This document shows, piece by piece, positions 29,610 through 62,271 of a stretch of 64,000 bases of DNA (position 1 is the first letter of the stretch; every line of letters starts with the position of its first letter). A program made the translations under genes and the position numbers. Source of the DNA: an uncultured Eubacteriales bacterium (GTDB lineage Bacteria > Acidobacteriota > Aminicenantia > Aminicenantales > Saccharicenantaceae); NCBI GenBank assembly GCA_964574895.1, contig CAZNPB010000001.1:18665-82664 (forward strand), read 5' to 3'. The notes beneath the pieces are model-generated. The model made no database searches, was not told where the DNA came from, and worked only from the letters and a program-made list of their open reading frames with translations.

Positions 29610-31463
29610 CTACCAGGCGATGCCGTAATCCTCGCCGTAGTTGCTGCTGCCGCCCCAGAACGTGCCGTGGGCCCGGTCGAAGAAGATGGCGTTGATCGGT
29701 CCCGAGGTCTGCTTCTTGACCGTCAGGATGTAGCCCATGGCCCGGAGCTTGTCCCTCACCTCGGGCGGCACCCGCTCGTTGATCTCCAGCTTGCCGGGGT
29801 AAGCCATATGACGCCCGAACGAGTCGTGCATCTGGAAGCTGTTGACGTTGGGGGCCTCGCAGGCCTGCTGGACGGTCATCCCGAACTCGACGACGTCGAG
29901 GAAGAACTGGAGCAGGTTCTGGTCCTGGGTGTCTCCGCCCTGGACGGCGAAGGACAGAAAAGGCCGGCCGTCTTTCAAGGCCAGTCCCGGGGTCAGCGTG
30001 GCCCGCGGCCTCTGGCCGGGGCGGACGACGTTGAAGGGGTTCTGGCGTTCCTCGAGGACGAAGCTCTGGGCCCGCTGGCTCAGGCCGACGCCGGTCCGGC
30101 CGGCCAGGACGCAGGGGATCCAGCCGCCGCTCGGCGTCACCGAGACCACCCAGCCCGCCTTGTCGGCCGCCTGGATGGAGGTCGTGCCGGAACGGAAGGA
30201 GGCCTCGACTTCGGCCGCCTGGGCCTCGTCGAGCGCCGCCGCGTCGCCCCGGCCCCAGTCGAGCCAGCCGTCGAGCAGAGAGCGATAGGGATTGGACCGG
30301 CCCTCGAAGGGAAAGGGATCGCCCGGCTTGACGTCGGGATCGTTCCGGTCGGGCCGGATAAGCTTGGCCCGGGCCCGGGCATAATCCTTCGAGAGCAGGC
30401 CGGCGATCGGCTCCGCGGGCGGAACGTAAGGGTCGCCGTAGTAGAAGTCGCGATCGGCGAAGGCCAGGTTCATGACCTGGTAAAGCGTGTGAATGTAGGC
30501 GGCGCTGTTGAGCCCCAGGGCCCGCAGGTCGATCGGTTCGAGCATGTTCAGGGCCTGGAGCATGACCGGGCCTTGGACCCAGGTCGTCAGCTTGAAGACA
30601 TCGATGCCTTTATAAGAGGTCGAGACCGGCTCCTCGAGCCGGACCTTCCAGGCCGCCAGGTCCTCCATCGTCATCAACCCGCCCTGCTCGCCCGTGCCGC
30701 GGACGAGCTCGCGGGCGATATCGCCCTTATAAAAACGGTCGTAGGCGGCGTAAATGGCCTCCCGCCGCGACCGGCCGGCGGCCAGCGCCAGGCGCTCGGC
30801 TTCGACGAGCTTGGCCAGCGTCGCGGCCAGATCGGGCTGGCGGAAGATCTCGCCCGGGTAGGGCGCCTCGCGGTCCTGGCCGGCGTGAGGCAACAGGACG
30901 GCCCGCGAATAGGGCCACTCCTTGATGCGGCCCTTGTCCTTCTCGATCCGGTCCGCCGTTTCCCGGTCGATGGGGTATCCTTCGGCCATCCGCTGGGCCG
31001 GGGCCAGGACCTCGGCCAGGCTCATGGTCCCGTACTCGGCCAGCATGGTCAGGAGCCCGCCCGGCGTGCCGGGCGTCACCGCGGCCAGGGGACCGTATTC
31101 GGGAGGATAAGCCAGGCCCCGGTCTTTGAAGAACCGCGGCGTGGCCCCGGTCGGAGCGACGCCCAAGGCGTTGACGCCGATGACCTTCCCCGTCCCGGGA
31201 TGATAGATGAGGGCCTGGGTCTCCCCGCCCCAGCTCAGGACGTCGTACATGGTGCAGACGGCGCCGAGCATGGCGCAGGCCGCGTCGACGGCGTTGCCGC
31301 CTTTGGCGAAGATCAGGGCCCCGGCCGTGGCGCCCAGCGGCTTGCCCGTGATGGCCACCCATTCTTTGCCGTGCAGGACCGGCTTCTCGGTCCGTTGGCC
31401 GTAGGCCTCCCCCGCCGAGAGGCCCAGAGCCAGGACGAGAACGGCCATGACGATCGCTTTCAT
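29610..31463 (-). CDS. ggt: Gamma-glutamyltransferase family Ntn-hydrolase, secreted
   Basis: Signal peptide. GGT-like large and small subunit regions, with a nucleophile-Thr region (SGTTSIQAAD). Confidence 0.8.
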   Translation of the reverse strand: MKAIVMAVLVLALGLSAGEAYGQRTEKPVLHGKEWVAITGKPLGATAGALIFAKGGNAVDAACAMLGAVCTMYDVLSWGGETQALIYHPGTGKVIGVNALGVAPTGATPRFFKDRGLAYPPEYGPLAAVTPGTPGGLLTMLAEYGTMSLAEVLAPAQRMAEGYPIDRETADRIEKDKGRIKEWPYSRAVLLPHAGQDREAPYPGEIFRQPDLAATLAKLVEAERLALAAGRSRREAIYAAYDRFYKGDIARELVRGTGEQGGLMTMEDLAAWKVRLEEPVSTSYKGIDVFKLTTWVQGPVMLQALNMLEPIDLRALGLNSAAYIHTLYQVMNLAFADRDFYYGDPYVPPAEPIAGLLSKDYARARAKLIRPDRNDPDVKPGDPFPFEGRSNPYRSLLDGWLDWGRGDAAALDEAQAAEVEASFRSGTTSIQAADKAGWVVSVTPSGGWIPCVLAGRTGVGLSQRAQSFVLEERQNPFNVVRPGQRPRATLTPGLALKDGRPFLSFAVQGGDTQDQNLLQFFLDVVEFGMTVQQACEAPNVNSFQMHDSFGRHMAYPGKLEINERVPPEVRDKLRAMGYILTVKKQTSGPINAIFFDRAHGTFWGGSSNYGEDYGIAW

Positions 31464-50177: not shown

Positions 50178-53100
50178 TTAGAAGCCCGGGCTGATGCTCA
50201 ACTGGAGGTGCCAGCCGCGCACCGGCCGGTCGATTGGGTAGACGTAATTCAGGCCCAGGATGAGATAGCCGAAAAGGTTCGTTCGCAGGCCGACGCCGTA
50301 ACTGCGCAGGGGCTTGCGCTGGCCGTCCCCGATGAACCAGGGCCGGACCAGGTTGGGGTCGGGCTGGCCCTCGGCGTCGTAACCGCCCCACCAGTTGCTG
50401 GGCTGGGAGGCGTAGGCGAGGCCCCAATCGTAGAAGGCGAAGGCCTCGAGGGGCCAGGCGCCGTAGAAGCCCTTGCCCAGGCCCAGCAGGCCCAGGAGGG
50501 GGAAGCGCAGCTCGAAGTTGGCCATGAGCATCCGGCTGCCGTAGAGCCGGCTGAAATCGAAGTTCTTGGTCGGGTCGTTCTGGTATTCGGTCAGCTCGGC
50601 CGTGGAGATCGAATCGTAGCCGCGGATGAGGTCCCAGTACCCGATGTAGAGCGGATAGAAGCGGGTGTCCTCGGCGTCCCGGCCGTAGCGGCCGTAGTGC
50701 ATGGCCCGGAAGGCCAGGGTGAAGGGCTTGACGGGCATCAGGTACTTTCGGAAATCCAGGACCGCGGTCGTGAAGGAGACCTTGCCCACGGCCGGGGAGA
50801 CCTGGATGCCCAGGTTCTGGCCGAGGATGGGGCTGGTCGCCCCGAAGATCCCGGTGTCGTAAAAATACCCGGCCGTGGCGTAGCCGTATCCCAGGCTCGA
50901 CGGCATGTCGTCGGGATGGGTCTTGCGGTAATCGATGAGGTAGCCGGCCAGGTCGTAGATCCGCTCGTAGACGGAGTGCTGGAAGTCCTCCAGCCGGAAG
51001 CCGCCGCTCAGCTGGAACCGGCTGACCTGGCTCAAGGGATAGGAGCCGAAGATCGAGGCGTCGTAGTTGATCAGGCGATAGACGTCCTCGACCTCGTGGT
51101 AGAAGCCGTCCTCGCCGATGCCGAAATAATAATAGGAATACGGATAGACGATGCGCTGGGCCGCCGCGCCCCAGTTGAGCCGGTTGCGGTTGTTGAGGTA
51201 GGCCACGACGCCCGACGTGTCCGCCACCCGGGAGCCGGTGAAGGCGGTCGTGACGACCGTGTGGTACCCCAGCATGTCGCTCCAATAGGCGGCCACGCCG
51301 CCCGCTCCGTAGGTCCCGTAGCGGTCGACGCCGATGGCCACGCTCGGCGGCATGACGTAGTCCAGGGACAGCTTGGGCTTGTAGGGCACGACGGCGAAAG
51401 CGGTGTCCTTGGGCAGGCCGAAGAGCGGGTTCTTGAGCAGGCCCAGCAGCGAGCCCTCCGGCTCGTTGCGCGGCGGCAGGACCGCGGGATTGCGGTCGAA
51501 CTGGGCCAGGAAGGCCTGGCCGGCGAGGACGGCCGGGTCGTCGATGGCGTAGACCGTGTAATAGCCGTCCTGGTAGCCGGAGAAGACGAGGCGCCCCGTG
51601 GCCAGGGCCAGCGAGATGGACGGGCTCAACTCGGTGATGCCGGCCACCCCGGTGTAGAGGTTGGTGACCTGGGTGATCTTGGCCGAGGCGACGTCGATCC
51701 GGTAGATGTCCGTCTTGCCGCTCTGGTCCGAGAGGAAGTAGAGGGCCTGCGAATCGGCGGTCCACTGGGGATTGATATTCTTGCCCGCGGGGAAGGCCAG
51801 GAGCTTCTGGACGCGGCCCGTCTCAACGTCGAGCAGGGCCAGCTCGTACTTGCCGAAATCGACCCACTCGACGTTGCTGGAGAACCTCTCGGTGACGAAG
51901 GCGATGGTCCGGCCGTCGGGGGACCAGACCGGCTGGAGGTCGCCGAAGACGTCCCGGGTCATCTGCTTGAGGACGTTGTCCTGAAGGTCGTAGATGAAGA
52001 TGTCGGAAAGGCCGCCGGCCAGCCCCGTGAAGGCGACATAGCGGCCGTCGGGCGACCAGGCCGGGCTCAGGATCTCGGCCAGCTCGTTGAAGGGCACTTC
52101 CCGCTCGATCTTGTCCTTCTTCATGTCGATGATCGTCAGGACCGGGCGGCCCTTGGCCACCCCGGCGAAGACGAACCTGCCGCCCTGGGCGTCCCAGGCG
52201 CCGGAGGACTTGATGAACTGGATGCTCTCGAAATGGGGGTCGACGGCCGTCGAGACGATCTTGCGCCGGACCTTGCCGGTGTCGGCGTCGGCCAGGAACA
52301 AGTCGACCGAGAAGAGGTCGCGGCTCGACAGGAAGACGATGGACTTGCCGTCGGGGCTGATGGACGGGGCGATGTTGTAGGGATTCGTCTCGCTGCCCTT
52401 GAACAGGGGCCGGCCGGCCTTGTCCGGGGCCTGGGTCTTGTCGGCCAGGGGGCCGTAGGCGGCCTGGAGGGACTTGTGCCAGTCGTCCGAGAGCTGCTTG
52501 AGCTTGAGGCCGAGGACGCTCTCGAGGATGACCTCGTAGTCGCCGGCGCGGCCGACCGACTTCATCATCTTGCCGACGACCTCGTCGCCCCAGCGCCCGG
52601 TGATGTAGGCCCAGACGGCCTGGCCCCAACGGTAGGGGAAGTACTTGTAGGAGTTGTCCAGCTTCTTGAGCTGCGGCAGCTCTTTGCGGCGGACGGCGTC
52701 GCGCATCCACATCGAGGTGTTGGGGTCGACGGGGCCGATGGACAGGTACTCGGCCATGCCCTCGATGAACCAGAGGGGGATGCGCAGGGCGGCGTCGTTG
52801 CCGCGGGCCTGGTCCGAATGGCCGATGGCCATGATGTCGTATTGGAAGGCGTGGACGAGCTCGTGCCCGATGACGTGGTCGGTCTCGGCCATGGTGGCCC
52901 CGTAAGGCAGGACGACGCGGCGCTTGAACGACTCGGTGACGCCGCCGGTCCCCTCCCCCATGATCTCGGGGATGACCGTCGTCTGCTGGAACTCGGGGCC
53001 GCTGGCGTAGAGCACCAGGGGCTGGCGGCCCTTGAGCTCGTGATTGAACATGCGGGACAGGCGCGCGTACCAGCGTTCGGCCATGAGGCCGGCCGTTTTG

Positions 53101-53291
53101 ACCGTCTCCTGGTCCTGGAGATAGAAGTAGATGTCGAAATGGCGCGTCTTCATGATCTTGAAGTCGAACTTGTTGTACTGGACCTTGTTCTTGCCGTACC
53201 ACTGGGCCCGCAAGCCCGGCGCGCCGGCGCCGGCCAGGACGCCGGCCAGGGCCAGGGCGGTCAGGATCTTCGCCAACGGGGATTTCCGCAT
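50178..53291 (-). CDS. Outer-membrane fusion protein: HExxH metalloprotease-like domain + PD40/TolB-type beta-propeller repeats + Omp85/BamA-type C-terminal beta-barrel
   Basis: I set the start at MRKSPLAKILTALALAG (signal peptide). It has HExxH (VIGHELVHAF) and PD40 repeats (ISPDGKSIVFLSSRD, WSPDGRYVAFTG, WSPDGRTIAFVTER, SDQSGKTDIYRI). The Omp85-like end reads ANFELRFPL...FYDWG...SYGVGLR...LQLSISPGF, with a terminal Phe. Confidence 0.8.
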   Translation of the reverse strand: MRKSPLAKILTALALAGVLAGAGAPGLRAQWYGKNKVQYNKFDFKIMKTRHFDIYFYLQDQETVKTAGLMAERWYARLSRMFNHELKGRQPLVLYASGPEFQQTTVIPEIMGEGTGGVTESFKRRVVLPYGATMAETDHVIGHELVHAFQYDIMAIGHSDQARGNDAALRIPLWFIEGMAEYLSIGPVDPNTSMWMRDAVRRKELPQLKKLDNSYKYFPYRWGQAVWAYITGRWGDEVVGKMMKSVGRAGDYEVILESVLGLKLKQLSDDWHKSLQAAYGPLADKTQAPDKAGRPLFKGSETNPYNIAPSISPDGKSIVFLSSRDLFSVDLFLADADTGKVRRKIVSTAVDPHFESIQFIKSSGAWDAQGGRFVFAGVAKGRPVLTIIDMKKDKIEREVPFNELAEILSPAWSPDGRYVAFTGLAGGLSDIFIYDLQDNVLKQMTRDVFGDLQPVWSPDGRTIAFVTERFSSNVEWVDFGKYELALLDVETGRVQKLLAFPAGKNINPQWTADSQALYFLSDQSGKTDIYRIDVASAKITQVTNLYTGVAGITELSPSISLALATGRLVFSGYQDGYYTVYAIDDPAVLAGQAFLAQFDRNPAVLPPRNEPEGSLLGLLKNPLFGLPKDTAFAVVPYKPKLSLDYVMPPSVAIGVDRYGTYGAGGVAAYWSDMLGYHTVVTTAFTGSRVADTSGVVAYLNNRNRLNWGAAAQRIVYPYSYYYFGIGEDGFYHEVEDVYRLINYDASIFGSYPLSQVSRFQLSGGFRLEDFQHSVYERIYDLAGYLIDYRKTHPDDMPSSLGYGYATAGYFYDTGIFGATSPILGQNLGIQVSPAVGKVSFTTAVLDFRKYLMPVKPFTLAFRAMHYGRYGRDAEDTRFYPLYIGYWDLIRGYDSISTAELTEYQNDPTKNFDFSRLYGSRMLMANFELRFPLLGLLGLGKGFYGAWPLEAFAFYDWGLAYASQPSNWWGGYDAEGQPDPNLVRPWFIGDGQRKPLRSYGVGLRTNLFGYLILGLNYVYPIDRPVRGWHLQLSISPGF

Positions 53292-53412: not shown

Positions 53413-53421
53413 ATCTTAGCA
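53413..53421 (-). promoter_or_regulatory. Extended -10 promoter (TGCTAAGAT) with a ~115-nt structured leader for the fusion OMP gene
   Basis: The minus strand reads atatTGCTAAGAT. The leader contains hairpins at 53380..53399 (ggtcgaaa/tttcgacc) and 53348..53363 (cctccc/gggagg). Confidence 0.45.
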
Positions 53422-53511
53422 ATATCGTAGTCTTTTGTCCATAAGCTCCAACGCCGCCGGGGCTGGCGGCGTTGCGCGGCCGGAGGGCCGGACGGCCGGT
53501 CCTCATTTCGA

Positions 53512-53541
53512 TTGACCCGGCCGCCGGAATTCCTGTAAGAT
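53512..53541 (+). promoter_or_regulatory. Candidate promoter TTGACC-18-TAAGAT (TGt-extended) for the permease-peptidase locus
   Basis: Hexamers at 53512..53517 and 53536..53541. The ATG at 53553 is only 11 nt downstream and no RBS is evident, so the transcript would be near-leaderless. Confidence 0.45.
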
Positions 53542-53552
53542 GCGGGTCGGAC

Positions 53553-54860
53553 ATGACGACGCAGATCCTGGTGATATTGGCGGTCATGGTCGCCGCCTAC
53601 GCCGCGGCCAAAGCGGCCAAGCTGTCGGTCGAGATCGGCATGTTCGCCGCGGCCGCGGCCGGCGGGCTGGCCGGGGCGGTCGTCAAGACCCCGCCTTTGG
53701 GCGAGCTGGGCCGCCACCTCGTCGAGGGCTCGATCACCTACCTCGACGTCATGCTGGTCTTCTTCACGGCCACCTTCTTCATGGCCCTGGTCGACGATTC
53801 GGGCGGCGTCGTCTACGCCGTCCGGGCCACCCTGCGGATTTTCGGCCGGCAGCGGGTCCTAGCCCTCCTGGCCCTGATGGTCATCGTCCTCATCCCCGGC
53901 GCGCTGACGGGGGCGGGCAGCGTCTCGCTCCTGGTCGTCGGCGCCCCGGTGGCCATGGCCCTGGGGCGGATGGGCGTCCCGCCGAAGCGGGTGGCGGCCA
54001 TCCTGTTCATCGTGGCCGGACTGAGCGCGGCCGCGCCGCCGGTCAATATCTGGGCCATGATCCTCTGCGCCGGCACGGCCATCCCCTATGTCGGCTTCGA
54101 ATTCACCCTGGGCATCCCCGTGCTCCTCCTCGGCGCCTTCACCGTGCTCGTCCTGGGCCTGAAAAGGGACCCGGCGGCCGGGACCGGCCCGGTCGAGCTG
54201 CCCGAACCGCCGGCCGGCATGACCTGGTGGCGGGTCCTCGTCCCCTTCCTTGTCTTTTTCGGCTTGGTCGCGGCCTATCGCGTCTGGCCGTTCGCGACGC
54301 CCATCTTCGGCCTGGCCCTGGAATTCGCCCTGGCCGCCTTGGCCGCCGTCCTTGTCAGCCCGAAGCGCATCGCCGTCCTGGGCTTGGCCGGCAAGACCGT
54401 CAAGCGCCTGCTGCCGCTGCTGGCCACCACGGCCGTCGTCGGCATGCTCCAGCAGATCATGACCGCCACCGGCGTCCGCGGACTGATCTCGTTCGCCGTC
54501 ATCTCGACGCCGCTCGTTCTTCTGTTCATCCTGCTGCCGGTCATCATCCCCTATTCCGAAGGGGTTCTGACCTACGGCGCCGCAGCCATCATCGGCATCC
54601 CGCTCATCTGGTTCCTGGATTCGATCGGTTTCCACGCCACCGTCGTCATCGCCGGATTGAGCCTGCTCTGGCCTCTCGGCGACGGCCTGCCGCCGACGGC
54701 CCTGATCGGCCGCCTGAGCGTCATGGTCTCGGGATATCAGGGGCCCTATAAGGCCTTCCTGAAGGCCACCTGGCTGCCCTGGCTGGTCATCACGGCCGCG
54801 GCCATGGCCATGATCCTGTTCAGCGCCAAGCTGGCCTTTCTGGTCAAGTGGAGCATGTAG
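53553..54860 (+). CDS. Polytopic permease (ion-transporter superfamily, DctM/GntP/CitMHS-like; family not resolved)
   Basis: I set the start at MTTQILVILAVMVAAYAAA. About 12 hydrophobic segments, with Gly/Ala/Pro-rich re-entrant-like segments. Confidence 0.7.
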   Translation: MTTQILVILAVMVAAYAAAKAAKLSVEIGMFAAAAAGGLAGAVVKTPPLGELGRHLVEGSITYLDVMLVFFTATFFMALVDDSGGVVYAVRATLRIFGRQRVLALLALMVIVLIPGALTGAGSVSLLVVGAPVAMALGRMGVPPKRVAAILFIVAGLSAAAPPVNIWAMILCAGTAIPYVGFEFTLGIPVLLLGAFTVLVLGLKRDPAAGTGPVELPEPPAGMTWWRVLVPFLVFFGLVAAYRVWPFATPIFGLALEFALAALAAVLVSPKRIAVLGLAGKTVKRLLPLLATTAVVGMLQQIMTATGVRGLISFAVISTPLVLLFILLPVIIPYSEGVLTYGAAAIIGIPLIWFLDSIGFHATVVIAGLSLLWPLGDGLPPTALIGRLSVMVSGYQGPYKAFLKATWLPWLVITAAAMAMILFSAKLAFLVKWSM

Positions 54861-54875
54861 GAGCGAGCCCAGACC

Positions 54876-55028
54876 ATGATCATCATGATCTCCTACTACC
54901 TGATCACGGCCGTCCTCCTCGGCCTGGCCGTCTGGAACTTCGTCCGGGAGAAGGACAAGCGCCAGGACCTCGTCCTCTACGCCCTGGTGATCATCCCGCT
55001 CCTGCTTCGGCTCTTGAGGTGGAAATGA
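54876..55028 (+). CDS. 50-aa two-TM micro-membrane protein
   Basis: My own translation is MIIMISYYLITAVLLGLAVWNFVREKDKRQDLVLYALVIIPLLLRLLRWK; it is not in the ORF track. AGGAG lies 12 nt upstream. Its TGA overlaps the next gene's ATG (ATGA). Confidence 0.55.
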   Translation: MIIMISYYLITAVLLGLAVWNFVREKDKRQDLVLYALVIIPLLLRLLRWK

Positions 55029-56203
55029 CCCCGTCCGTCAAGGGCCGGGACGCCGCCCTCAAATCGGCCCTCGCCGCCGCCGTCGTCGGCCTGGTCCTCT
55101 GGGGCGGGTTGCCCCTCCTGCGCCACCGGCGCTTCGACGTCCCGGTCGTCAAGGGGCCCGGCGTCACCCGGGTCCTGCGCTTGAGCGAGTTCTCGCCCGG
55201 CCTCAAGGGCACCCGCGCCGATACCTTCATCTACGTCCTCGAGGGCCGGGAGCCGGGCGGCAAGGCCCTGCTCATGGGCGACACCCACTCGAACGAGCCG
55301 GAGGGCATGCTGACGGCCCTCCTGTTCATCGAGAACGCCGTCGTCGACAAGGGCACGCTCTACGTCATCCCCTTCTTCAACAACAGCGGCAGCCGCAACA
55401 CGCGGGCCGGCGACGGGTATCCCTTGTACTTCGACATCGCCACGGACTGGGGCCGGCAGCGGTTCCGTTACGGCAACCGCGACGCCTCGCCCCTGGACCA
55501 GTGGCCCGACCCGGACGTCTATATCCACTACCCCGAGCGCCAGCTGCTGTCCTATATCGACGTCCGCAACACCAACCGGACCTGGCCGGGCCGGGCCCGC
55601 GGACCGCTCATGGAGCGGGTGACCTTCGGGGCCATGGAGCTGATGCGCCGCGAGGCGATCGACGTGGCCGTCGACATCCACGGCGCCGAAACGATGTTCC
55701 CGGTGACCAACTGCATCGTCGCGCCGGAGAAGTCGGTCAAGATCGCCACGCTGGCCTCGCTGACGGTCAAGGCCGTCGAGGGCTTCGAGAACCACGTCGA
55801 GGCCTCGCCCTCCGGCTTCCGGGGCCTGTCCCACCGCGAGATCGGCGATCACGGCCCGTCGCTGCCCTTCCTGCTCGAAGCCCCCATCCCCTTCCTCGAC
55901 CAGCCCACGGGTCCCAAAACGGTCAAGCTTCTGCTCGACGGCCGGGATCCGTTCCTGTTGAGCCTGTCGAAGAAGAAAAAGCTGTTCGTCCCCTACGACG
56001 AGAGCGGCTGGCCGCTGGAAAAGCGGGTCGGGCAGAACCTGTCCGTGACCCTCGAGATCTTCCGCCAATTCTCGAAAAAGACCCCGTCCCGGCCCCTGGC
56101 CGTCCGGGGCGTGCCCCGCTACGCCGACGTGGTCGAGGCCGGGGTCGGGCATTACCTGGCCGACCCCGCCAAGGCTCCGGCCGGCGGCGTGGTCATGAAT
56201 TGA
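55025..56203 (+). CDS. Membrane-anchored zinc hydrolase of the succinylglutamate desuccinylase/aspartoacylase (AstE/AspA, M14-like) family
   Basis: I set the start at MTPSVKGRDAAL inside ORF 54848..56203. N-terminal TM anchor. Zn ligand motifs HxxE (GDTHSNEPEG) and a distal His (VDIHGAE). Confidence 0.7.
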   Translation: MTPSVKGRDAALKSALAAAVVGLVLWGGLPLLRHRRFDVPVVKGPGVTRVLRLSEFSPGLKGTRADTFIYVLEGREPGGKALLMGDTHSNEPEGMLTALLFIENAVVDKGTLYVIPFFNNSGSRNTRAGDGYPLYFDIATDWGRQRFRYGNRDASPLDQWPDPDVYIHYPERQLLSYIDVRNTNRTWPGRARGPLMERVTFGAMELMRREAIDVAVDIHGAETMFPVTNCIVAPEKSVKIATLASLTVKAVEGFENHVEASPSGFRGLSHREIGDHGPSLPFLLEAPIPFLDQPTGPKTVKLLLDGRDPFLLSLSKKKKLFVPYDESGWPLEKRVGQNLSVTLEIFRQFSKKTPSRPLAVRGVPRYADVVEAGVGHYLADPAKAPAGGVVMN

Positions 56204-56241
56204 TCGGGCCGGCCCCGCGCGCCGCCCGGGAGGTATCCGCG

Positions 56242-57960
56242 ATGTTCATCAAGCGAACGATCCCCGCTCTCTTGGCCGTGGCGGCCGTCCTGCTGCTGGC
56301 CGGCGGCGTCACCCTGGACCGGGCGGCCGCGCCGGACGCCGGCGACCCGGCCTCCGAGGCCTGCACCGTCATCATGGTCGGCAAGGACGCCTCGACGGAC
56401 GGTTCCGTCATGAGCACCCACGCCGCCGACTGCGGCGTCTGCGATTTCGTCTGGCGGCACGTCCCGGCCGCGGACCACAAGCCGGCGGAGAAGCGGCGGC
56501 TCTACAACATCGACCAGATCCGGACCTGGCCGCCCGCCGAGGGCGGCAAGTGGGCGGCGGTGCTGAAGGACCCGACCGCGGTCGAGATCCCCCAGCCGGC
56601 CCACACCTACGCCTACCACCACTCCATCTTCGGCTACATGAACGACCAGCAGCTGGCCATCGGCGAGTCCACGATCGGCAACGTCCGCAAGATCGGCAAC
56701 CCGACGCCGACCCCGGCCACCAACATCACCATGCTGACGCTCCTGGCCATGGAGCGCTGCCGGACCGCCCGCGAGGCCATCCGGTTCATGGGCGAGCTGG
56801 CCGAGAAGTACGGCTACGGCTACCACGACGGCGGCGAGATGCTGGCCGTCTCCGATCCGCGGGAGATCTGGGTCTTCGAGATCATGCCCGTGGGGCCCCT
56901 CTGGACCCCCGACGGCGGCAAGCCCGGGGCCGTCTGGGCGGCCCAGCGCGTCCCCGACGACCATGTCGCCGTGTGCACCAACGAGTCCATCATCGGCGAG
57001 CTCGACCTGGGGGATCCCGACTTCTTCATGGCCTCCGCCCACGTCGAGTCCTACGCCGTCGAAGCCGGGCTCTACGAGCCCAAGGCCGGAAAGCCCTTCA
57101 GCTGGAAGCGGGCCTATTCGCCGGCCGAGGGCAGCGCCGTCAGCACGGCCGGGCGCCGCTCGCGGACCTGGCGCTTCTTCGACCTGGTCGCCCCGTCCCG
57201 GAAGTTCAAGCCCGAGACGCCCAACATGGACTTCCCCTTCTCGGTCAAGCCCGACCGCAAGCTCTCGGCCCAGGACGTCATGGCCCTGACCCGGGACAAA
57301 TCCGAGGGCTCGATCTTCGATCCCGTCCGCGGCCTGCGCGGCGGCCCGTTCAAGAACCCGAACTATTACAAGGGGACGCGGCTCATCAGCGTCTCCAACG
57401 TCGAGTACACGACCCTGACGCAGTGCCGCTCCTGGCTGCCGGCCCCGGTCGGCGGCCTGGTCTGGGTGGCCCTGGGCGCCCAGGACACGTCCTGCTACGT
57501 CCCGTTCTACGCCGGGGCCACGGACGTCCCGGCCGCCTTCACCGTCGGCGACCATTTCGTCCTCGACCGGCGCTCGGCCCGCTGGGCCTTCGACTACGTC
57601 GACTTCCACGTCCAGGTGGCCTACAACGCGGCCATCGAGGACGTCAGGTCGGCCCGGAAGACCTGGGAGGACGGGGCCTTCGCCAAGGTGGCCGAGGTCG
57701 ACACCCGGGCCGCCGAGCTCTACAAGCGCAGCCCCAAAGAGGCCCTCAAGTACGTCACCGGCTTCACCCTCAACAACGCCCAGAGCGTCGTCGACGCCTG
57801 GTGGAAGCTCGGCGACGACCTATGGGTCAAGTACAACCATCTGGCCCTCTACGACGCCGGGAAGCGGCGCAGCGGCCGCATCCCGACGGCCAACCCCGAC
57901 TGGTGGAACAAAGCCGTGCGGGCCCTCGACGTCTTGAGCGAGCCCGACGTCAAGAAATAA
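56242..57960 (+). CDS. Secreted C69-family (Ntn-hydrolase) dipeptidase, copy 1
   Basis: I set the start at MFIKRTIPALLAVAAVLLLAG (signal peptide). Nucleophile Cys context EACTVIMVGKDASTDGS. GGAGG RBS. Confidence 0.85.
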   Translation: MFIKRTIPALLAVAAVLLLAGGVTLDRAAAPDAGDPASEACTVIMVGKDASTDGSVMSTHAADCGVCDFVWRHVPAADHKPAEKRRLYNIDQIRTWPPAEGGKWAAVLKDPTAVEIPQPAHTYAYHHSIFGYMNDQQLAIGESTIGNVRKIGNPTPTPATNITMLTLLAMERCRTAREAIRFMGELAEKYGYGYHDGGEMLAVSDPREIWVFEIMPVGPLWTPDGGKPGAVWAAQRVPDDHVAVCTNESIIGELDLGDPDFFMASAHVESYAVEAGLYEPKAGKPFSWKRAYSPAEGSAVSTAGRRSRTWRFFDLVAPSRKFKPETPNMDFPFSVKPDRKLSAQDVMALTRDKSEGSIFDPVRGLRGGPFKNPNYYKGTRLISVSNVEYTTLTQCRSWLPAPVGGLVWVALGAQDTSCYVPFYAGATDVPAAFTVGDHFVLDRRSARWAFDYVDFHVQVAYNAAIEDVRSARKTWEDGAFAKVAEVDTRAAELYKRSPKEALKYVTGFTLNNAQSVVDAWWKLGDDLWVKYNHLALYDAGKRRSGRIPTANPDWWNKAVRALDVLSEPDVKK

Positions 57961-57987
57961 GGTCCCCCCGAGAGAAAGGAGCGAGCG

Positions 57988-59718
57988 ATGAAGATGAAGC
58001 ATCTGGGCGCCTTGGGCCTGGCCCTGGTTCTGGCCTTCGCGCTGACCGGCCATTCCGCCCCGGCGCAGGAGCCGGCCTCGGCCGACACCGGCTTCGCGGC
58101 CGTCCACGGCGAGGGCTGCACGGTCATCATCGTCGGCAAGGACGCCTCGACGGACGGCTCCGTCATGACCACCCACACCTGCGACTGCGGCGCCTGCGAC
58201 TGGACCTTCCGCCGGGTCGCCGCGGCCGACCACAAGCCCGGCTCGACGCGGAAGATCTATCACGTCTCCCAGTACCGGACCTGGCCGCCCTCCGAAGGCC
58301 TCAAGTGGGACCTCATCAAGAAGGATTACGCCGGGATCGAGATCCCCGAGCCGCCGCACACCTACGGCTACATCCACGGCAGCTTCGGCTACATGAACGA
58401 CAAGCAGGTGGCCATCGGCGAATCGACGATCGGCTGCCAGCGCAAGATGGAGAACCCGACGCCCGCGGCCAAGCTCGACCTGACCATGCTGACGCTCCTG
58501 GGGATGGAGCGCGCCGGCACGGCCCGCGAGGCCGTCCAGATCATGGGCGGCCTGGCCGAGAAATACGGCTACGGCTTCCACGACGACGGCGAGATGCTGG
58601 CCGTGGCCGATCCGAAAGAGGTCTGGATCTTCGAGATCATGCCCGTCGGCCCGCTGTGGACCCCGGAGAGCGGCAAGCCGGGCGCGGTCTGGTGCGCCCA
58701 GCGCGTGCCCGACGACGAGGTCAGCGTCTGCCCGAACGAGAGCCGCATCGGCGAGATCGACCTGGCCAACAAGGACTTCTTCATGGCCTCGCCCAACGCC
58801 GTCTCCCTGGCCGTCGACCTGGGCTATTACGACCCCAAGAGCGGCAAGCCCTTCAACTGGAAGCGGGCCTATTCGCCCGTCGAAGGCAGCGCGGTCAGCA
58901 CCAACGGCGGCATCCAGCGGCTGTGGCGCTTCTTCGACCTGGCCGCCCCGTCCAAGAAATTCAAGCCCGAGACCCCGAACATGGACCTGCCCTTCTCGGT
59001 CAAGCCGGACAAGAAGATGTCGGTCCAGGACGTCATGGACATGACCCGCGACCGCAGCGCCGGCACGCCGTGGGACCCGCTCAAGGGCATTCGGGGCGGA
59101 CCGTTCAAGAATCCCAACTACTTCAACCGCCGCGCCCCGCGGGTGATCGACGACGGCCGGGCCGAGTACACGACCGTCACCCAGTGCCGGGCCCAGCTGC
59201 CCGACCCCATCGGCGGCCTGGTCTGGATCTCCTTCGGCTCCCAGGACACGGCCTGCTACATGCCCTTCTACGCCGGCGTGACGGAGCTGCCGAAGTCGTT
59301 CTCCGTCGGCGACCACTGGACCTTCAGCCGGGATTCCGCCCGCTGGGCTTTCGACTACACCGACTTCCATGTCCAGGTCGCCTTCTCCGAGGCCATCAAG
59401 GACGTCCAGGCGGCCCAGGCCAAGTACGAGCGCGATCTGGTGGCCCGGATCGGCGAGATCGACCAGCAGGCCCTGGCCCTGTACAAGAAGAAACCCGCGG
59501 ATGCGGCCAGGTTCCTGACCGGCTTCTCGCTCAACAACGCCCAGACGGTCGTCAACGCCTGGTGGAAGCTCGGCGACGACCTGCTCGTCAAGTACAACCG
59601 GCTCTACCTCTACGACACGGAGAAGCGGAGCTACGACCGCGGCAAGCCGGCCCTGCCGGAATGGTGGAAGAAAGCCGTCCGGGCCATGGACATCCTGATG
59701 GAGCCGGACAAGAAGTAA
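57988..59718 (+). CDS. Secreted C69-family (Ntn-hydrolase) dipeptidase, copy 2
   Basis: Signal peptide. GCTVIIVGKDASTDGS. Collinear with copy 1 at roughly 60-65% identity by eye. Confidence 0.85.
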   Translation: MKMKHLGALGLALVLAFALTGHSAPAQEPASADTGFAAVHGEGCTVIIVGKDASTDGSVMTTHTCDCGACDWTFRRVAAADHKPGSTRKIYHVSQYRTWPPSEGLKWDLIKKDYAGIEIPEPPHTYGYIHGSFGYMNDKQVAIGESTIGCQRKMENPTPAAKLDLTMLTLLGMERAGTAREAVQIMGGLAEKYGYGFHDDGEMLAVADPKEVWIFEIMPVGPLWTPESGKPGAVWCAQRVPDDEVSVCPNESRIGEIDLANKDFFMASPNAVSLAVDLGYYDPKSGKPFNWKRAYSPVEGSAVSTNGGIQRLWRFFDLAAPSKKFKPETPNMDLPFSVKPDKKMSVQDVMDMTRDRSAGTPWDPLKGIRGGPFKNPNYFNRRAPRVIDDGRAEYTTVTQCRAQLPDPIGGLVWISFGSQDTACYMPFYAGVTELPKSFSVGDHWTFSRDSARWAFDYTDFHVQVAFSEAIKDVQAAQAKYERDLVARIGEIDQQALALYKKKPADAARFLTGFSLNNAQTVVNAWWKLGDDLLVKYNRLYLYDTEKRSYDRGKPALPEWWKKAVRAMDILMEPDKK

Positions 59719-59741
59719 CGCGGAAGACAAGGAGACCCGCA

Positions 59742-60392
59742 ATGAGCAAGCGCATCCTCATCGGCCTGGCCGCCGCGGCGGTCCTGGCCGTATCCCTCCC
59801 GGCGGCGGGCCAGGTCCCGGCCAAGGTCGGCCTGCCCATCCTGACGACCTCGGCCGGCCAGAGCACCGACGTCACGACCCTCAACATCGTCCTCGACGAA
59901 GCCGGGCTGTCCTACGATTATTGCGACGTCCCGACGGCCGAGATGGTGGCCGACGGCGTGGGCCTCGGCGGCCGCGAGTCCGGCCCCGGCTTCCATATCG
60001 AGTCGACGACCGACCCGGCCAAGTTCCCGGCCGGCACGCCGTACAAGGCCGTCGTCTTCGCCATCGGGGCCAGCCTCAAGGGCATGGGCGCCTCGGGCCT
60101 GACCCTCGACAGCGAAGAGGCCCGGCTGAAGAAGGTCCTCGAGTACTGCAAGCAGCACAAGATCTTCGTCATGGCCGTCCACATCGGCGGCGAATCCAAG
60201 CGCGGCCCGGCCGGCAGCGACAACGAGCGCATGATCGACGCCGTGGCCCCCTTCGCCGATTACCTCGTCGTGACCAAGGACAGCAACAAGGACGGCCGCT
60301 TCGCCAAGATCGCCCAGTCCAAGAAGATCCCGATGAGCGAGATCGACTACGCCCTGGGCCTCGTGGACATCGTCAAGCAGGTGTTCCAATAG
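59742..60392 (+). CDS. Secreted protein of unknown function (alpha/beta-looking, 216 aa)
   Basis: I set the start at MSKRILIGLAAAAVLAVSLPAAG inside ORF 56550..60392. AAGGAG RBS. I recognise no motif with confidence. Confidence 0.65.
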   Translation: MSKRILIGLAAAAVLAVSLPAAGQVPAKVGLPILTTSAGQSTDVTTLNIVLDEAGLSYDYCDVPTAEMVADGVGLGGRESGPGFHIESTTDPAKFPAGTPYKAVVFAIGASLKGMGASGLTLDSEEARLKKVLEYCKQHKIFVMAVHIGGESKRGPAGSDNERMIDAVAPFADYLVVTKDSNKDGRFAKIAQSKKIPMSEIDYALGLVDIVKQVFQ

Positions 60393-60412: not shown

Positions 60413-61339
60413 CTAACGGATCCTCTTCAGGGCCGCGGCGGCCGTCGGACCGATGCCGACCAGCAGCCGCGGGCCTGACGGCGCGAAAGCGGCGTAGCGG
60501 CCCTTCGGGTCCCGGAAAACGGGGGCGCCGTCCGCCGCGGCCGGCGCCGGAGCGAACCTCTTCGACGCCTCGAGCGCGGCCCGCAGCTCGTCCCAGGCCC
60601 CGGCCCGGACGTCCTCCCGGCCGTAATCCAGGATGATCGAGGACGTTCCGTCCTCGTATTCGGCCGCGACCGCCGACCGGAATCCCAGGCCGCTGGCGGT
60701 GTAAAAGGGATAGACGTTGTTCAGGCCCAGCAGCCCCTTCAGGAATTTGACGCTTTTCGGCTTCAGACCTTGTGACGGCAGGGTCGCGGGCAGGTCCGGA
60801 AGGGCGGCCGTTTCCGCGATCTTCGCGTCGACCGCGCCGGCGAGGGCCTGCAGCCCGGCCAGCGTTTCCGGCGCCTGGTCGAAGCCGGTCAGGGTCGCGA
60901 GATAAGGTCCCTTCCAGAAGTTCAGGTAGTAGTCCTCGAGGTCGCCGCCCCCGCCGAGCGCGACGCTCTTCCCCTTGCCCGACCGCTTGAAGGTGTAGAT
61001 GCCGTAGGCCGCTTCCGGCGTGGCCATCTCGAAGAGCTCGAGCGAGACGGAGGCGCCGGCCGCGGTCCTGTAATCCTGGACGGCGACGCGACGGAAGCCG
61101 TATTCCTGGTAGATCTCGGCCCCGCCGTCGATATAGGCGTAGAGGTCGTCGCCGGCGAACTCCTGGACCTCGCCGTCCCGGCTCCAGCCCGGCACGGCGC
61201 CGTCGGCCGGCAGCAGGTCCCGCAGGGATTCGGGCCCGACGGCCAGGCCCCCCGCCGCCCCGGCCAGACCCAGGAGGCAGGCCAGGGCCAGTCCCGCGGC
61301 CGTCCGTCGCCCGGCGGAAGTCCCCCGACAGGCGGGCAT
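60413..61339 (-). CDS. Secreted protein of unknown function (308 aa)
   Basis: I set the start at MPACRGTSAGRRTAAGLALACLLGLAGA. The ATG overlaps the stop of the upstream DUF362 gene (ATGA). No catalytic motif recognised. Confidence 0.6.
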   Translation of the reverse strand: MPACRGTSAGRRTAAGLALACLLGLAGAAGGLAVGPESLRDLLPADGAVPGWSRDGEVQEFAGDDLYAYIDGGAEIYQEYGFRRVAVQDYRTAAGASVSLELFEMATPEAAYGIYTFKRSGKGKSVALGGGGDLEDYYLNFWKGPYLATLTGFDQAPETLAGLQALAGAVDAKIAETAALPDLPATLPSQGLKPKSVKFLKGLLGLNNVYPFYTASGLGFRSAVAAEYEDGTSSIILDYGREDVRAGAWDELRAALEASKRFAPAPAAADGAPVFRDPKGRYAAFAPSGPRLLVGIGPTAAAALKRIR

Positions 61340-62271
61340 CAGGCCCTGGCCTCGCGGAGGCCCTTGGCCCCGGGATCGATCCGGCCCAGGCCCTGGGCCG
61401 CCGCGCGCTCGATCTGGACGACATCCTGGGGCTTGAGCCCCCAGAGCGAAGCGCAATAGGCGTCCACGGCCACCCGGTCCACGCCGGCCACGACCTTATG
61501 GGGCTTGAGGAGCTCGCCGGGGCCGAAGGGGCCGTTGGTGACGATGAACTCGGTCGCGTCGACGACGTTGAGGGCCGGCTGGACGGCCTTGTTCAGGTCG
61601 ACGATGCACTGGTCGAGGTGGGCGATGTCGCCGGGGTCCGTCTTCCAGTTGGGACGGTGGAAGGTCCGGTTGTTCGCCGGCGAGTTCAGGCCCATGAGGT
61701 TCTTCATGGAGCCGGTGAACTCGTTGCCGGCGTGGTCCTTGGTGATCGGCATGTTGATGAGCGCGTCGTAGTCGTCGAGGGCCGCCAGGACGCGGGCCTC
61801 CGGGAGGGCGAGGCCGCCCGGCACCGGGACCGGCTTGAACAGGGACTCGTCCTTCTCGAAGATCCTCAAGCCGGCGCCTTCGGCCTCGATCACGGCCTTC
61901 AGACCGGTGTCCTCCCATTGCTTGACCGTCTGCCAGCTCAAGGCCTCGACCTTGGCCGCCCCGGCGGCCCGACAGAGCCGGATGACGGCCCGCAGGACCT
62001 CGGGCTTGGTGAACGAGCCCGGATGGCGGCTCTGGACGTTCGGCAGCAGGGCCACTTTGTCTCCCCGGGAAACGAACCTGCCCATGCCGCCCAGGAGATC
62101 GACGGCCCGGGCCGCCGCCTTTCCGAAATCGTCGCCCCGACCCACGCCGACGATCGGCCGGGCCCGGCCCGCGGCGGCCGCCGCCGACCCGAGAGGCGTT
62201 CCCAGCACCAGGGCCAGGCCGGCCCCGGCGCCGGCCTTGACGAATTCGCGTCGTCCGAGCTTACGATCCAT
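61339..62271 (-). CDS. DUF362 domain protein with twin-arginine (Tat) signal
   Basis: I set the start at MDRKLGRREFVKAGAGAGLALVLG (RRxFxK Tat motif) inside ORF 61339..63747. The DUF362-like core has VALLPNV...ITKDHAGNEFTGSMKNLMG...VVDAT. AAGGAGG RBS. Confidence 0.75.
   Translation of the reverse strand: MDRKLGRREFVKAGAGAGLALVLGTPLGSAAAAAGRARPIVGVGRGDDFGKAAARAVDLLGGMGRFVSRGDKVALLPNVQSRHPGSFTKPEVLRAVIRLCRAAGAAKVEALSWQTVKQWEDTGLKAVIEAEGAGLRIFEKDESLFKPVPVPGGLALPEARVLAALDDYDALINMPITKDHAGNEFTGSMKNLMGLNSPANNRTFHRPNWKTDPGDIAHLDQCIVDLNKAVQPALNVVDATEFIVTNGPFGPGELLKPHKVVAGVDRVAVDAYCASLWGLKPQDVVQIERAAAQGLGRIDPGAKGLREARA

What the first reader, a model, noticed from the sequence alone, without database searches (positions are those of the whole stretch)
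53512..60392. Six-gene candidate peptide / N-acyl-amino-acid scavenging locus of unusual composition
Six co-directional genes sit behind one TTGACC-18-TAAGAT promoter. They are tightly spaced (15 nt, a 4-nt overlap, then 38, 27 and 23 nt), and five of the six have GGAGG-type RBS.

The genes, in order:
- a ~12-TM permease I cannot place in a defined family
- a 50-aa two-TM micro-protein translationally coupled (ATGA) to the next gene
- a membrane-anchored AstE/AspA-type zinc hydrolase (HxxE...H)
- two paralogous signal-peptide-bearing C69 Ntn-dipeptidases
- a secreted 216-aa protein with no recognisable motif

C69 dipeptidases and AstE/AspA deacylases are each well known. I do not know of a described system that combines an anchored deacylase, periplasmic C69 enzymes and a dedicated permease plus micro-subunit. 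My inference is an envelope-located pathway. It would deacylate and cleave small (possibly N-blocked or cell-wall-derived) peptides and import the products. This is the best candidate in the window for an undescribed functional module.
Basis: partly seen in the sequence, partly recalled or inferred. Interest (0 to 1): 0.7.

Follow-up and report, generated by a model that had tools for sequence, protein, structure and literature searches.

The report
Conserved hydrolase-coupled DctM-type uptake module
The six genes are a real operon in an Aminicenantes bacterium, and four of them form an uncharacterised membrane transport module found in at least six bacterial phyla, always next to a secreted peptide-cleaving enzyme.

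Summary
In detail: six co-directional genes, with the stated spacing, ribosome-binding sites and promoter-like site.

**Identities**
- G1 is a divergent DctM-type (TRAP large-subunit-like) permease.
- G2 is a conserved 50-aa two-helix membrane subunit. One homologue is naturally fused to the permease.
- G3 is a membrane-anchored AstE/AspA/M14-like zinc hydrolase with its catalytic motifs intact.
- G4 and G5 are secreted C69 dipeptidases, 64% identical.
- G6 is DUF6305, a secreted single-domain alpha/beta protein with no close solved structural relative.

**Conservation**
- In 43 of 43 adequately flanked Aminicenantia loci, G1, G2, G3 and DUF6305 co-occur. C69 copy number varies from 0 to 3.
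- Permease relatives only 30-37% identical, from other phyla, keep the same four-gene core.
- Outside Aminicenantia the core lies with gamma-glutamyltranspeptidase instead of C69 (29 of 29 adequately flanked loci).
- About half of those loci also carry poly-gamma-glutamate synthase genes (pgsB, pgsC, TIGR04332).

**Reading (inferred)**
Peptide or amide bonds are hydrolysed outside the cytoplasmic membrane, and the anionic amino-acid product is taken up by the permease complex. The substrate in Aminicenantes is unknown. No paper in the searched library describes this module.

The parts
53512..53541 (+). Promoter-like site TTGACC-18-TAAGAT; the G1 start codon lies 11 nt downstream (very short leader).
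   Evidence: A consensus match only; no transcript data.
53553..54860 (+). G1: 435-aa polytopic permease, a divergent DctM-type (ion-transporter superfamily) protein from a small distinct family.
   Evidence: The protein itself has no Pfam or NCBIfam hit. Only 300 representatives were found among 1.84 billion proteins. Of 41 relatives, 34 match PF06808 DctM (best 7e-17) and 15 match CitMHS. The family profile hits the TRAP DctMQ structure 9pym at E=0.0016. A simple hydropathy scan flags 16 partly overlapping hydrophobic windows, roughly a dozen distinct segments.
54876..55028 (+). G2: 50-aa two-helix membrane protein, inferred to be a subunit of the permease.
   Evidence: Conserved next to the permease in 43/43 Aminicenantia loci and 16/19 distant loci. 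The family alignment shows a conserved C-terminal motif IPLxLRxLxxK. P0163 (497 aa) is a natural permease + micro-protein fusion. It is a called gene in public records.
55025..56203 (+). G3: 392-aa zinc hydrolase of the AstE/AspA / M14-like superfamily with one N-terminal membrane helix. The catalytic domain is inferred to face outward.
   Evidence: The family profile hits AstE/AspA structures 2qj8 (5e-10), 6twm (6e-8), 3cdx and 3na6, and Csd4 4wcm (4e-4). All 28 members match PF24827 (best 5e-14) and 14 match M99. Invariant residues are H88, E91, N182, N184, R185, D217, H219, E259, H270, R271 and E285. The window protein alone scores 17.1 bits, below the Pfam cut-off of 25.
56242..57960 (+). 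G4: secreted C69 Ntn dipeptidase (572 aa). A lineage-specific accessory gene.
   Evidence: PF03577 at 1.2e-57. A signal peptide is followed by Cys in the motif CTVIMVGKDAS. C69 copy number is 0-3 across Aminicenantia loci.
57988..59718 (+). G5: secreted C69 Ntn dipeptidase (576 aa), paralogue of G4.
   Evidence: PF03577 at 1.4e-59. It is 64% identical to G4. It matches the solved dipeptidase 5iau at 3e-16 with the Cys aligned.
59742..60392 (+). G6: secreted 216-aa DUF6305 protein, a single-domain three-layer alpha/beta fold. A core component whose role (receptor or enzyme) is unknown.
   Evidence: PF19823 at 1.6e-39. The AF2 model has pLDDT 89. The best PDB fold matches are SGNH esterases with TM-score only 0.30-0.38. 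There is no sequence match to any PDB chain. Eighteen columns are invariant across phyla. It is present in 43/43 and 19/19 adequately flanked loci.
50178..53291 (-). Context only: a divergently transcribed 1037-aa tricorn-like / PD40 protease with an HExxH motif, conserved upstream only in closer Aminicenantia relatives.
   Evidence: A promoter-like site on the minus strand lies at 53441-53413.

Best explanation
The locus encodes an envelope module that couples extracytoplasmic peptide or amide hydrolysis to uptake of the product.

**Core, conserved across at least six phyla**
- a DctM-type secondary permease (G1)
- an obligate ~50-aa two-helix membrane subunit (G2)
- a membrane-anchored zinc amidohydrolase/carboxypeptidase of the AstE/AspA-M14 type (G3), inferred to face outward
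- a secreted or lipoprotein DUF6305 protein (G6)

**Variable slot.** A secreted Ntn hydrolase accompanies the core. In the lineages sampled outside Aminicenantia it is gamma-glutamyltranspeptidase. In Aminicenantia it is one to three C69 dipeptidases (G4 and G5 here).

**Proposed flow**
1. The Ntn hydrolase and the anchored zinc hydrolase release free, probably acidic, amino acids from small peptides or amides at the membrane surface.
2. DUF6305 captures or further processes the product.
3. The G1-G2 permease imports it.

**Shown**
- gene identities
- obligate co-occurrence and co-orientation across phyla
- the swap of Ntn hydrolase family
- a natural fusion of G1 with G2
- intact catalytic motifs in G3, G4 and G5
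- export signals

**Inferred**
- physical complex formation
- direction of transport
- the role of DUF6305
- substrate identity: gamma-glutamyl compounds in the relatives, unknown small peptides in Aminicenantes
For: - **Permease family.** Of 41 relatives, 34 match DctM. The family profile hits a TRAP DctMQ structure.
- **Aminicenantia conservation.** G2, G3 and DUF6305 are present in 43 of 43 adequately flanked loci and C69 in 41 of 43. The association survives circular permutation of gene order in L035, L066, L069, L074 and L078. It also survives loss of C69 in L080 and L081.
- **Distant relatives.** Permeases 30-37% identical keep DUF6305 and the AstE-like gene in 19 of 19 adequately flanked loci.
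- **GGT association.** GGT is within 8 kb in 29 of 29 loci that have at least 3 kb of flank on both sides. It is immediately adjacent in 44 of 54 loci and on the same strand in 54 of 54.
- **Reciprocal look-ups.** Five look-ups anchored on DUF6305 all returned the same neighbours. The organisms were Thermovirga, Caproicibacterium, Cetobacterium, Rectinema and an Atribacteria contig.
- **Fusion.** P0163 joins the permease and the micro-protein in one polypeptide.
- **G3 motifs.** HxxE, NLNRxYPG, DxH and later Glu residues are invariant across the family. The profile matches AstE/AspA and Csd4 structures.
- **DUF6305 export.** Homologues carry signal peptides or lipoboxes with low-complexity linkers. 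One lipoprotein has three tandem DUF6305 domains.
- **C69 nucleophile.** The N-terminal Cys is present in both G4 and G5.
Against: - There is no experimental datum for any member. The papers library has nothing on DUF6305.
- The DUF6305 fold is a single alpha/beta domain with weak SGNH-hydrolase resemblance, not the bilobed fold of known solute receptors. It may be an enzyme rather than a receptor.
- G1 itself reaches no Pfam threshold.
- The PDB hit for the permease profile is marginal (E=0.0016).
- Direction of transport is not testable here.
- About half of the distant loci sit beside pgsB/pgsC biosynthetic genes. That could instead indicate a role in making or remodelling poly-gamma-glutamate.
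- G3 topology in the window protein is ambiguous, because it has basic residues on both sides of the helix.
Confidence: 0.55

Rival explanations
1. The core module serves poly-gamma-glutamate (PGA) production rather than nutrient uptake. It would export, anchor, trim or recycle the polymer made by PgsB, PgsC and TIGR04332. The Aminicenantes copy would then be a remnant, or a version co-opted for another polymer.
For: - pgsB (TIGR04012, 385-393 bits against a cut-off of 223), pgsC (TIGR04011) and the 'poly-gamma-glutamate system protein' TIGR04332 lie beside the module in 15-18 of 29 well-flanked distant loci.
- The same genes lie beside it in Caproicibacterium, Cetobacterium, Thermovirga and an Atribacteria contig.
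- GGT-family CapD is the PGA-processing enzyme of Bacillus anthracis (own knowledge).
- A glutamate-racemase-like gene occurs in 6 loci.
Against: - About half of the well-flanked distant loci have GGT plus the module but no pgs genes within 8 kb, Rectinema L168 among them.
- None of the 84 loci L001-L084 (nearly all Aminicenantia) has pgsB or pgsC nearby, and neither does the window.
- DctM-family proteins with known function are importers (own knowledge).
- Biosynthetic and degradative PGA genes are also co-located in Bacillus (own knowledge). Adjacency therefore does not discriminate between the two roles.
Confidence: 0.17
2. DUF6305 is a hydrolase (an esterase or amidase on an SGNH-like scaffold), not a receptor. 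The locus is then a three- or four-enzyme periplasmic degradation pathway. The permease with its micro-subunit would work without any binding partner.
For: - The best fold matches are SGNH esterases (probability 0.92-0.96).
- Invariant polar residues lie in or just after strands of the AF2 model, as in an active site: T36, Q40, D43, S111, K113, H147, R154 and D184.
- The fold is not that of a known solute-binding protein.
Against: - TM-scores are only 0.30-0.38 and identity 12-15%.
- The invariant residues are not the Ser/Gly/Asn/His set that defines SGNH hydrolases, as I recall it (the block comparison itself is from memory).
- Tandem triple-domain lipoprotein forms resemble multi-domain receptors more than enzymes.
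- There is no sequence match to any characterised enzyme.
Confidence: 0.2
3. The six genes are merely an operon of independent peptide-catabolism genes with no physical or mechanistic coupling.
For: Peptide fermenters often cluster peptidases and transporters. No interaction data exist.
Against: - The four-gene core is kept across at least six phyla at 30-37% permease identity, through rearrangements and duplications.
- A natural permease and micro-protein fusion exists.
- DUF6305 was found beside this permease in 5 of 5 reciprocal look-ups and was present in all adequately flanked loci.
Confidence: 0.08

Closest known systems
TRAP transporters (DctP-DctQ-DctM, and TAXI-TRAP)
   Same: - A DctM-type large permease.
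- A small membrane partner encoded immediately beside it, fused to it in some lineages.
- An exported protein encoded in the same operon.
   Different: - The small partner has 2 helices and ~50 aa. It is not the four-helix DctQ.
- There is no DctP or TAXI solute-binding protein in the operon.
- The exported partner is a single-domain DUF6305, not a bilobed receptor.
- An anchored zinc hydrolase is an obligate fourth component.
- G1 itself does not reach the Pfam DctM threshold.
Poly-gamma-glutamate loci (capBCADE of Bacillus anthracis; pgsBCAE plus ggt/pgdS of Bacillus subtilis; pgsB-pgsC-TIGR04332 variants)
   Same: Relatives of the module sit with GGT (the CapD family), PgsB, PgsC and TIGR04332, and often with a two-component system.
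   Different: - The window has no pgs genes, and no GGT in the operon.
- The four core proteins are not among the Bacillus cap/pgs operon genes listed above (own knowledge).
AstE/AspA/DoeB deacylases and M14/M99 carboxypeptidases (MpaA, Csd4, phage PghP)
   Same: - HxxE...H zinc site.
- NR carboxylate-binding motif.
- Profile-level homology.
- MpaA acts on a gamma-glutamyl bond and PghP degrades poly-gamma-glutamate (own knowledge).
- PghP is a zinc-dependent metallopeptidase related to carboxypeptidase A (PMC4497714).
   Different: - G3 has an N-terminal membrane anchor, and its catalytic domain is probably outside the cell.
- It forms its own subfamily, always paired with the permease.
- It has no match to the PghP family.
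C69 dipeptidases (PepD/PepDA type, PDB 5iau)
   Same: Strong Pfam C69 match and an aligned N-terminal Cys nucleophile.
   Different: - G4 and G5 carry signal peptides.
- They are about 100 aa longer than the solved dipeptidase.
- They score below the NCBIfam equivalog cut-off (172-182 bits against 250).

Membership tests
TRAP-T / DctM (PF06808) | The large permease is homologous to DctM. | tested here: inconclusive
   G1 alone has no Pfam hit at E<=0.1. Of 41 family relatives, 34 match PF06808 (best 7e-17). The profile hits the DctMQ structure 9pym at E=0.0016. Superfamily membership is well supported; family membership is not.
TRAP-T / DctM (PF06808) | A four-helix DctQ small subunit. | tested here: not met
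   The adjacent small protein has 50 aa and two hydrophobic segments. No DctQ hit was found.
TRAP-T / DctM (PF06808) | A DctP or TAXI periplasmic solute-binding protein in the operon. | tested here: not met
   None of the six proteins matches DctP or TAXI. The exported partner is DUF6305, with a single-domain fold.
AstE/AspA (PF24827) zinc deacylases | HxxE...H zinc ligands, the NR substrate-carboxylate motif and a catalytic Glu. | tested here: met
   H88, E91, N184, R185, D217, H219 and E285 are invariant in 28 sequences from several phyla. These regions align to solved AstE/AspA proteins.
AstE/AspA (PF24827) zinc deacylases | A score above the curated family threshold. | tested here: not met
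   The window protein scores 17.1 bits against a cut-off of 25. All 28 aligned members match at E<=0.1, with a best E-value of 5e-14.
Peptidase C69 | A Pfam C69 domain and an N-terminal nucleophile Cys. | tested here: met
   PF03577 at 1e-57 and 1e-59. The Cys in CTVI(M/I)VGKDAS aligns with 5iau. The NCBIfam equivalog cut-off is not reached.
DUF6305 (PF19823) | A score above the Pfam gathering threshold. | tested here: met
   135.4 bits against a cut-off of 25.
SGNH hydrolases (considered for DUF6305) | The SGNH fold with the four catalytic blocks (Ser, Gly, Asn, His). | tested here: inconclusive
   Foldseek E~5e-4 but TM-score only 0.30-0.38. The invariant residues are T36, G39, Q40, D43, G109, S111, K113, H147, R154 and D184. 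I judge by eye that they do not follow the SGNH block pattern; no block-by-block alignment was made.
Poly-gamma-glutamate synthesis locus | pgsB and pgsC adjacent. | tested here: not met
   There is no pgsB or pgsC hit in the window or in any of the 84 loci L001-L084, nearly all Aminicenantia. They are present beside distant relatives only.

The most novel reading that the evidence does not exclude
The four core proteins form a previously unrecognised class of multi-subunit secondary transporter. In it, a DctM-type permease uses a two-helix micro-subunit in place of DctQ. It uses a new-fold extracytoplasmic receptor (DUF6305) in place of DctP or TAXI. It also carries its own anchored zinc hydrolase, so that substrate cleavage and capture happen at the mouth of the transporter. 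Lineages would retarget the system by swapping the Ntn hydrolase that feeds it (GGT or C69).
Probability: 0.3. Interest if true: 0.8.

Novelty: new variant of a known kind. Interest (0 to 1): 0.62.

Why it matters
- **Transport biology.** If the reading is right, it adds a new architecture to the binding-protein or enzyme-assisted secondary transporters.
- **Function for orphans.** It gives a first functional context to DUF6305 and to a widespread ~50-aa membrane protein.
- **Physiology.** It links a transporter to gamma-glutamyl and poly-gamma-glutamate turnover in anaerobic peptide fermenters such as Fusobacteriota, Synergistota, Spirochaetota, Clostridia and Atribacterota.
- **Aminicenantes.** For this abundant uncultured sediment and subsurface lineage, it identifies a highly conserved envelope route for taking up the products of peptide breakdown.
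- **Testability.** Cultured carriers exist (Thermovirga lienii DSM 17291, Caproicibacterium sp. BJN0003; DUF6305 proteins are also named from Cetobacterium and Fusobacterium), so the idea can be tested directly.

Tried and rejected
- **Single-sequence searches.** G1 and G6 found nothing in the PDB. G1 and G2 had no significant hit in Pfam or NCBIfam.
- **Genome scan, first attempt.** A closer alignment worked but returned only Aminicenantia.
- **Look-up of the window's own permease.** It found no record.
- **DUF6305 structure, first model.** A shallow alignment (at least 82% identity) gave pLDDT 55 and was discarded.
- **DUF6305 as a classical solute-binding protein.** Not supported by the fold.
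- **DUF6305 as an SGNH hydrolase.** The fold match is weak and, by eye, the invariant residues do not look like the SGNH blocks.
- **DUF6305 profile against PDB sequences.** Only chance-level hits appeared.
- **G3 as a PghP-type PGA hydrolase.** No Pfam match to that family appeared among the 28 members.
- **Literature.** Searches for DUF6305, TIGR04332, and combinations of GGT, TRAP, deacylase, pgs, Aminicenantes and C69 found no description of the module.
- **Model coordinates.** They are not exposed, so I could not inspect pocket geometry.

Full report

Yes. Six + strand ORFs lie at these coordinates:
- G1 53553-54860
- G2 54876-55028
- G3 55025-56203
- G4 56242-57960
- G5 57988-59718
- G6 59742-60392

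The gaps are 15, -4 (ATGA), 38, 27 and 23 nt. AGGAG- or GGAGG-like sites precede G2 to G6. G1 starts 11 nt after the -10 hexamer.

The promoter-like TTGACC-18-TAAGAT site at 53512-53541 was recovered by the scan: 2 sites in 7.6 kb against 0.4 expected. A second promoter-like site on the minus strand (53441-53413) faces the divergent upstream gene.

All six products, including the 50-aa one, are called genes in public records on a 154-kb NCBI contig. The window is about 68% G+C. Its closest relatives are Aminicenantes / Aminicenantia metagenome-assembled genomes.

**2. What each gene is**

*G1 (permease).* It has no Pfam, NCBIfam or PDB sequence hit on its own.
- An exhaustive search of 1.84 billion representative proteins found only 300 relatives, so this is a small, distinct family.
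- Of 41 full-length relatives, 34 individually match Pfam DctM (best 7e-17) and 15 match CitMHS.
- The family profile hits the isethionate TRAP DctMQ structure 9pym, marginally (E=0.0016).
- G1 is therefore a divergent DctM-type member of the ion-transporter superfamily.

*G2 (micro-protein).* It belongs to a clearly conserved family of about 47-50 residues. The family has two hydrophobic helices, an E-K-rich loop and a C-terminal IPLxLRxLxxK motif. One relative, P0163 (497 aa), is a natural fusion. The permease occupies residues 4-422 (E=1.7e-144) and the micro-protein residues 452-496 (E=5e-9). This argues that G2 is a permease subunit.

*G3 (zinc hydrolase).* Alone it scores only 17 bits on AstE_AspA_cat.
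- A 28-sequence profile spanning several phyla hits solved AstE/AspA-family proteins: 2qj8 at 5e-10, DoeB 6twm at 6e-8, 3cdx and 3na6. It also hits the M14-like carboxypeptidase Csd4.
- All 28 members match PF24827, and 14 also match M99.
- The motifs THxNEP, RNLNRxYPG, DxH, ExSP, GLxHRE and LxE are invariant. The enzyme is therefore probably active.
- Every member has a single N-terminal hydrophobic helix. In most aligned homologues Lys/Arg residues precede it, which suggests an outward-facing catalytic domain. This is an inference, and the window protein itself is ambiguous.

*G4 and G5 (C69 dipeptidases).* They are 64% identical. Both are strong C69 matches (1e-57 and 1e-59). Each has a signal peptide followed by the nucleophile Cys, which aligns with the solved dipeptidase 5iau.

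*G6 (DUF6305).* It matches PF19823 at 1.6e-39.
- With a 78-sequence alignment, AlphaFold2 gives a confident model (pLDDT 89, pTM 0.84) of a single three-layer alpha/beta domain.
- The best PDB fold matches are SGNH esterases, but with TM-scores of only 0.30-0.38.
- A sequence profile finds nothing in the PDB.
- Eighteen columns are invariant across phyla, including T36, G39, Q40, D43, G109, S111, K113, G114, E125, R128, H147, R154 and D184.
- The Aminicenantia proteins carry an insertion of about 28 residues and extra invariant motifs (YDYCD, GFHxE, DNERM).
- Homologues elsewhere have signal peptides or lipoboxes with low-complexity linkers. L150 encodes a lipoprotein with three tandem DUF6305 domains.

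**3. Conservation within Aminicenantia**

A scan of species-representative genomes returned 80 loci with permease identity of 67-92%.

Among the 43 loci with enough flank:

| Gene | Loci with it |
|---|---|
| G2 | 43 |
| G3 | 43 |
| DUF6305 | 43 |
| C69 | 41 |

- C69 copy number ranges from 0 (L080, L081) to 3 (L005).
- Five loci are circularly permuted to C69-C69-DUF6305-G1-G2-G3.
- The upstream tricorn-like protease and the downstream DUF6599 and DUF362 genes are conserved only among closer relatives.

**4. Conservation far beyond Aminicenantia**

A metagenome scan used permease relatives only 30-37% identical to G1 and gave 80 further loci. HMMs built from the Aminicenantia genes find DUF6305 and the AstE-like gene in 19 of 19 adequately flanked loci. 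They find the micro-protein in 16 of 19. DUF6305 lies either just upstream of the permease or just after the AstE-like gene.

C69 is absent there. Clustering of neighbouring ORFs instead shows gamma-glutamyltranspeptidase as the dominant neighbour (PF01019 at 7e-131; TIGR00066 above its cut-off):
- It is within 8 kb in 29 of 29 loci with at least 3 kb of flank on both sides.
- It is immediately adjacent in 44 of 54 loci.
- It is on the same strand in 54 of 54 loci.

Other neighbours in those 29 well-flanked loci:

| Neighbour | Loci (of 29) |
|---|---|
| pgsB (TIGR04012, above cut-off) | 15 |
| TIGR04332 'poly-gamma-glutamate system protein' | 18 |
| pgsC (TIGR04011, above cut-off) | 8 |
| histidine kinase and response regulator | 10 each |
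| second, lipoprotein-type AstE/AspA protein | 11 |

Five reciprocal look-ups starting from DUF6305 proteins all returned the same neighbourhood:
- Thermovirga lienii DSM 17291 (Synergistota)
- Caproicibacterium sp. BJN0003 (Bacillota)
- a Cetobacterium assembly
- a contig carrying a DUF6305 protein that NCBI names from Rectinema (Spirochaetota)
- a contig carrying one named from Atribacteria

The phyla of Thermovirga, Caproicibacterium and Rectinema were checked in the taxonomy. With Cetobacterium in Fusobacteriota and Atribacteria in Atribacterota (own knowledge), and with Aminicenantes, that is at least six phyla.

**5. Interpretation**

The unit under selection is a four-gene core (permease, micro-subunit, anchored zinc hydrolase, DUF6305) plus a slot for a secreted Ntn hydrolase. 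That slot holds GGT in the other lineages sampled and C69 in Aminicenantia.

The simplest mechanism that uses all parts is hydrolysis outside the cytoplasmic membrane coupled to uptake. The Ntn hydrolase and the anchored M14-like enzyme would liberate an amino acid. DUF6305 would capture or process it, and the DctM-type permease would import it.

Three clues in the relatives point to glutamate or gamma-glutamyl compounds:
- the GGT, pgs and glutamate-racemase context
- the preference of characterised AstE/AspA enzymes for N-acyl acidic amino acids (own knowledge)
- the dicarboxylate bias of DctM-type carriers (own knowledge)

For the Aminicenantes version the substrate is open, for two reasons. 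GGT has been replaced by dipeptidases, and its DUF6305 has lineage-specific insertions.

Shown and inferred steps are listed under the best explanation. I put this reading at about 0.55.

**6. Rivals**
- *PGA biosynthesis or remodelling.* This is favoured by pgs adjacency. It is weakened because about half of the distant loci, and all Aminicenantia loci, lack pgs genes nearby.
- *DUF6305 as an enzyme rather than a receptor.* This is compatible with the weak SGNH-like fold match. By eye the invariant residues do not follow the SGNH blocks.
- *An operon of unrelated genes.* This is hard to reconcile with conservation across phyla, with rearrangements that keep the core together, and with the fusion protein.

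**7. Comparison with known systems and novelty**

The module works most like a TRAP transporter, with a large DctM-type permease, a small membrane partner and an exported partner. It fails two defining TRAP features, because it has no DctQ and no DctP or TAXI protein.

Its individual enzyme families (AstE/AspA-M14, C69, GGT) are well known. DUF6305 and the micro-protein are uncharacterised.

No paper in the searchable library mentions DUF6305 or this gene combination. The library is incomplete, so this is absence of evidence only.

I classify the finding as a new variant of a known kind, namely a DctM-type secondary transporter operon. There is roughly a 0.3 chance that it is a genuinely new multi-subunit transporter architecture.

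**8. Verdict**

Four refinements are needed:
- The C69 genes are lineage-specific accessories.
- The true conserved unit is four genes plus a swappable Ntn hydrolase.
- The permease and the 216-aa protein can both be placed in families.
- The only substrate clue points to gamma-glutamyl chemistry, not to N-blocked or cell-wall peptides.

Noticed in passing
window 29718-31211 (-): A distant gamma-glutamyltranspeptidase homologue (26% identity to the GGT that accompanies the module in other phyla) lies 22 kb upstream of the operon. It is not part of the operon.
   Followed up: partly
L001 8600-11700 (GCA_041304185.1, a 3.19-Mb contig): One Aminicenantes assembly has a broken copy of the locus. 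Only residues 1-393 of the tricorn-like protease, intact G1 and G2, and residues 26-73 of G3 remain, followed by an M28 peptidase and a DPP-IV-like gene. The same permease protein (P0042) sits in an intact locus in a second assembly (L002). This is either a rearrangement or a misassembly.
   Followed up: partly
L150 1150-2913; L163 8176-9909: DUF6305 occurs as a ~580-aa lipoprotein with three near-identical tandem domains separated by Ala/Gly/Ser-rich linkers, directly upstream of the permease.
   Followed up: partly
P0163 (497 aa, from the representative search): A natural fusion of the permease with the two-helix micro-protein at its C-terminus.
   Followed up: yes
L094 9974-16791; L161 3624-14153: Some contigs carry two copies of the module side by side. 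L161 has three DUF6305 genes and two permeases. L095, L147 and L148 have an extra AstE-like gene directly upstream of the permease.
   Followed up: no
window 50178-53291 (-) and 53413-53441 (-): A 1037-aa HExxH / PD40 / tricorn-like protease is transcribed divergently from the operon, from a promoter-like TGGACA-17-TAAGAT site. It is conserved upstream only in the closer Aminicenantia relatives. It may feed peptides to the module.
   Followed up: partly
window 60413-61339 (-) and 61339-62271 (-): Convergent DUF6599 and DUF362 genes lie downstream. The DUF362 N-terminus looks like a twin-arginine signal, by eye only. Both are conserved only among closer relatives.
   Followed up: no
proteins P0467 and P0482: Some public records name DUF6305 proteins 'glycoside hydrolase family 5 protein' or 'dihydropteroate synthase'. 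Permease homologues are named 'C4-dicarboxylate ABC transporter' or 'CitMHS family'. Nothing found here supports the GH5, dihydropteroate-synthase or 'ABC transporter' names.
   Followed up: no
L097, L111, L140 (flanks of the module): Several distant loci carry PorV-like genes and genes with type IX secretion C-terminal sorting domains beside the module. This suggests carriers in the Bacteroidota/FCB group as well. A glutamate-racemase-like gene recurs in 6 loci.
   Followed up: no
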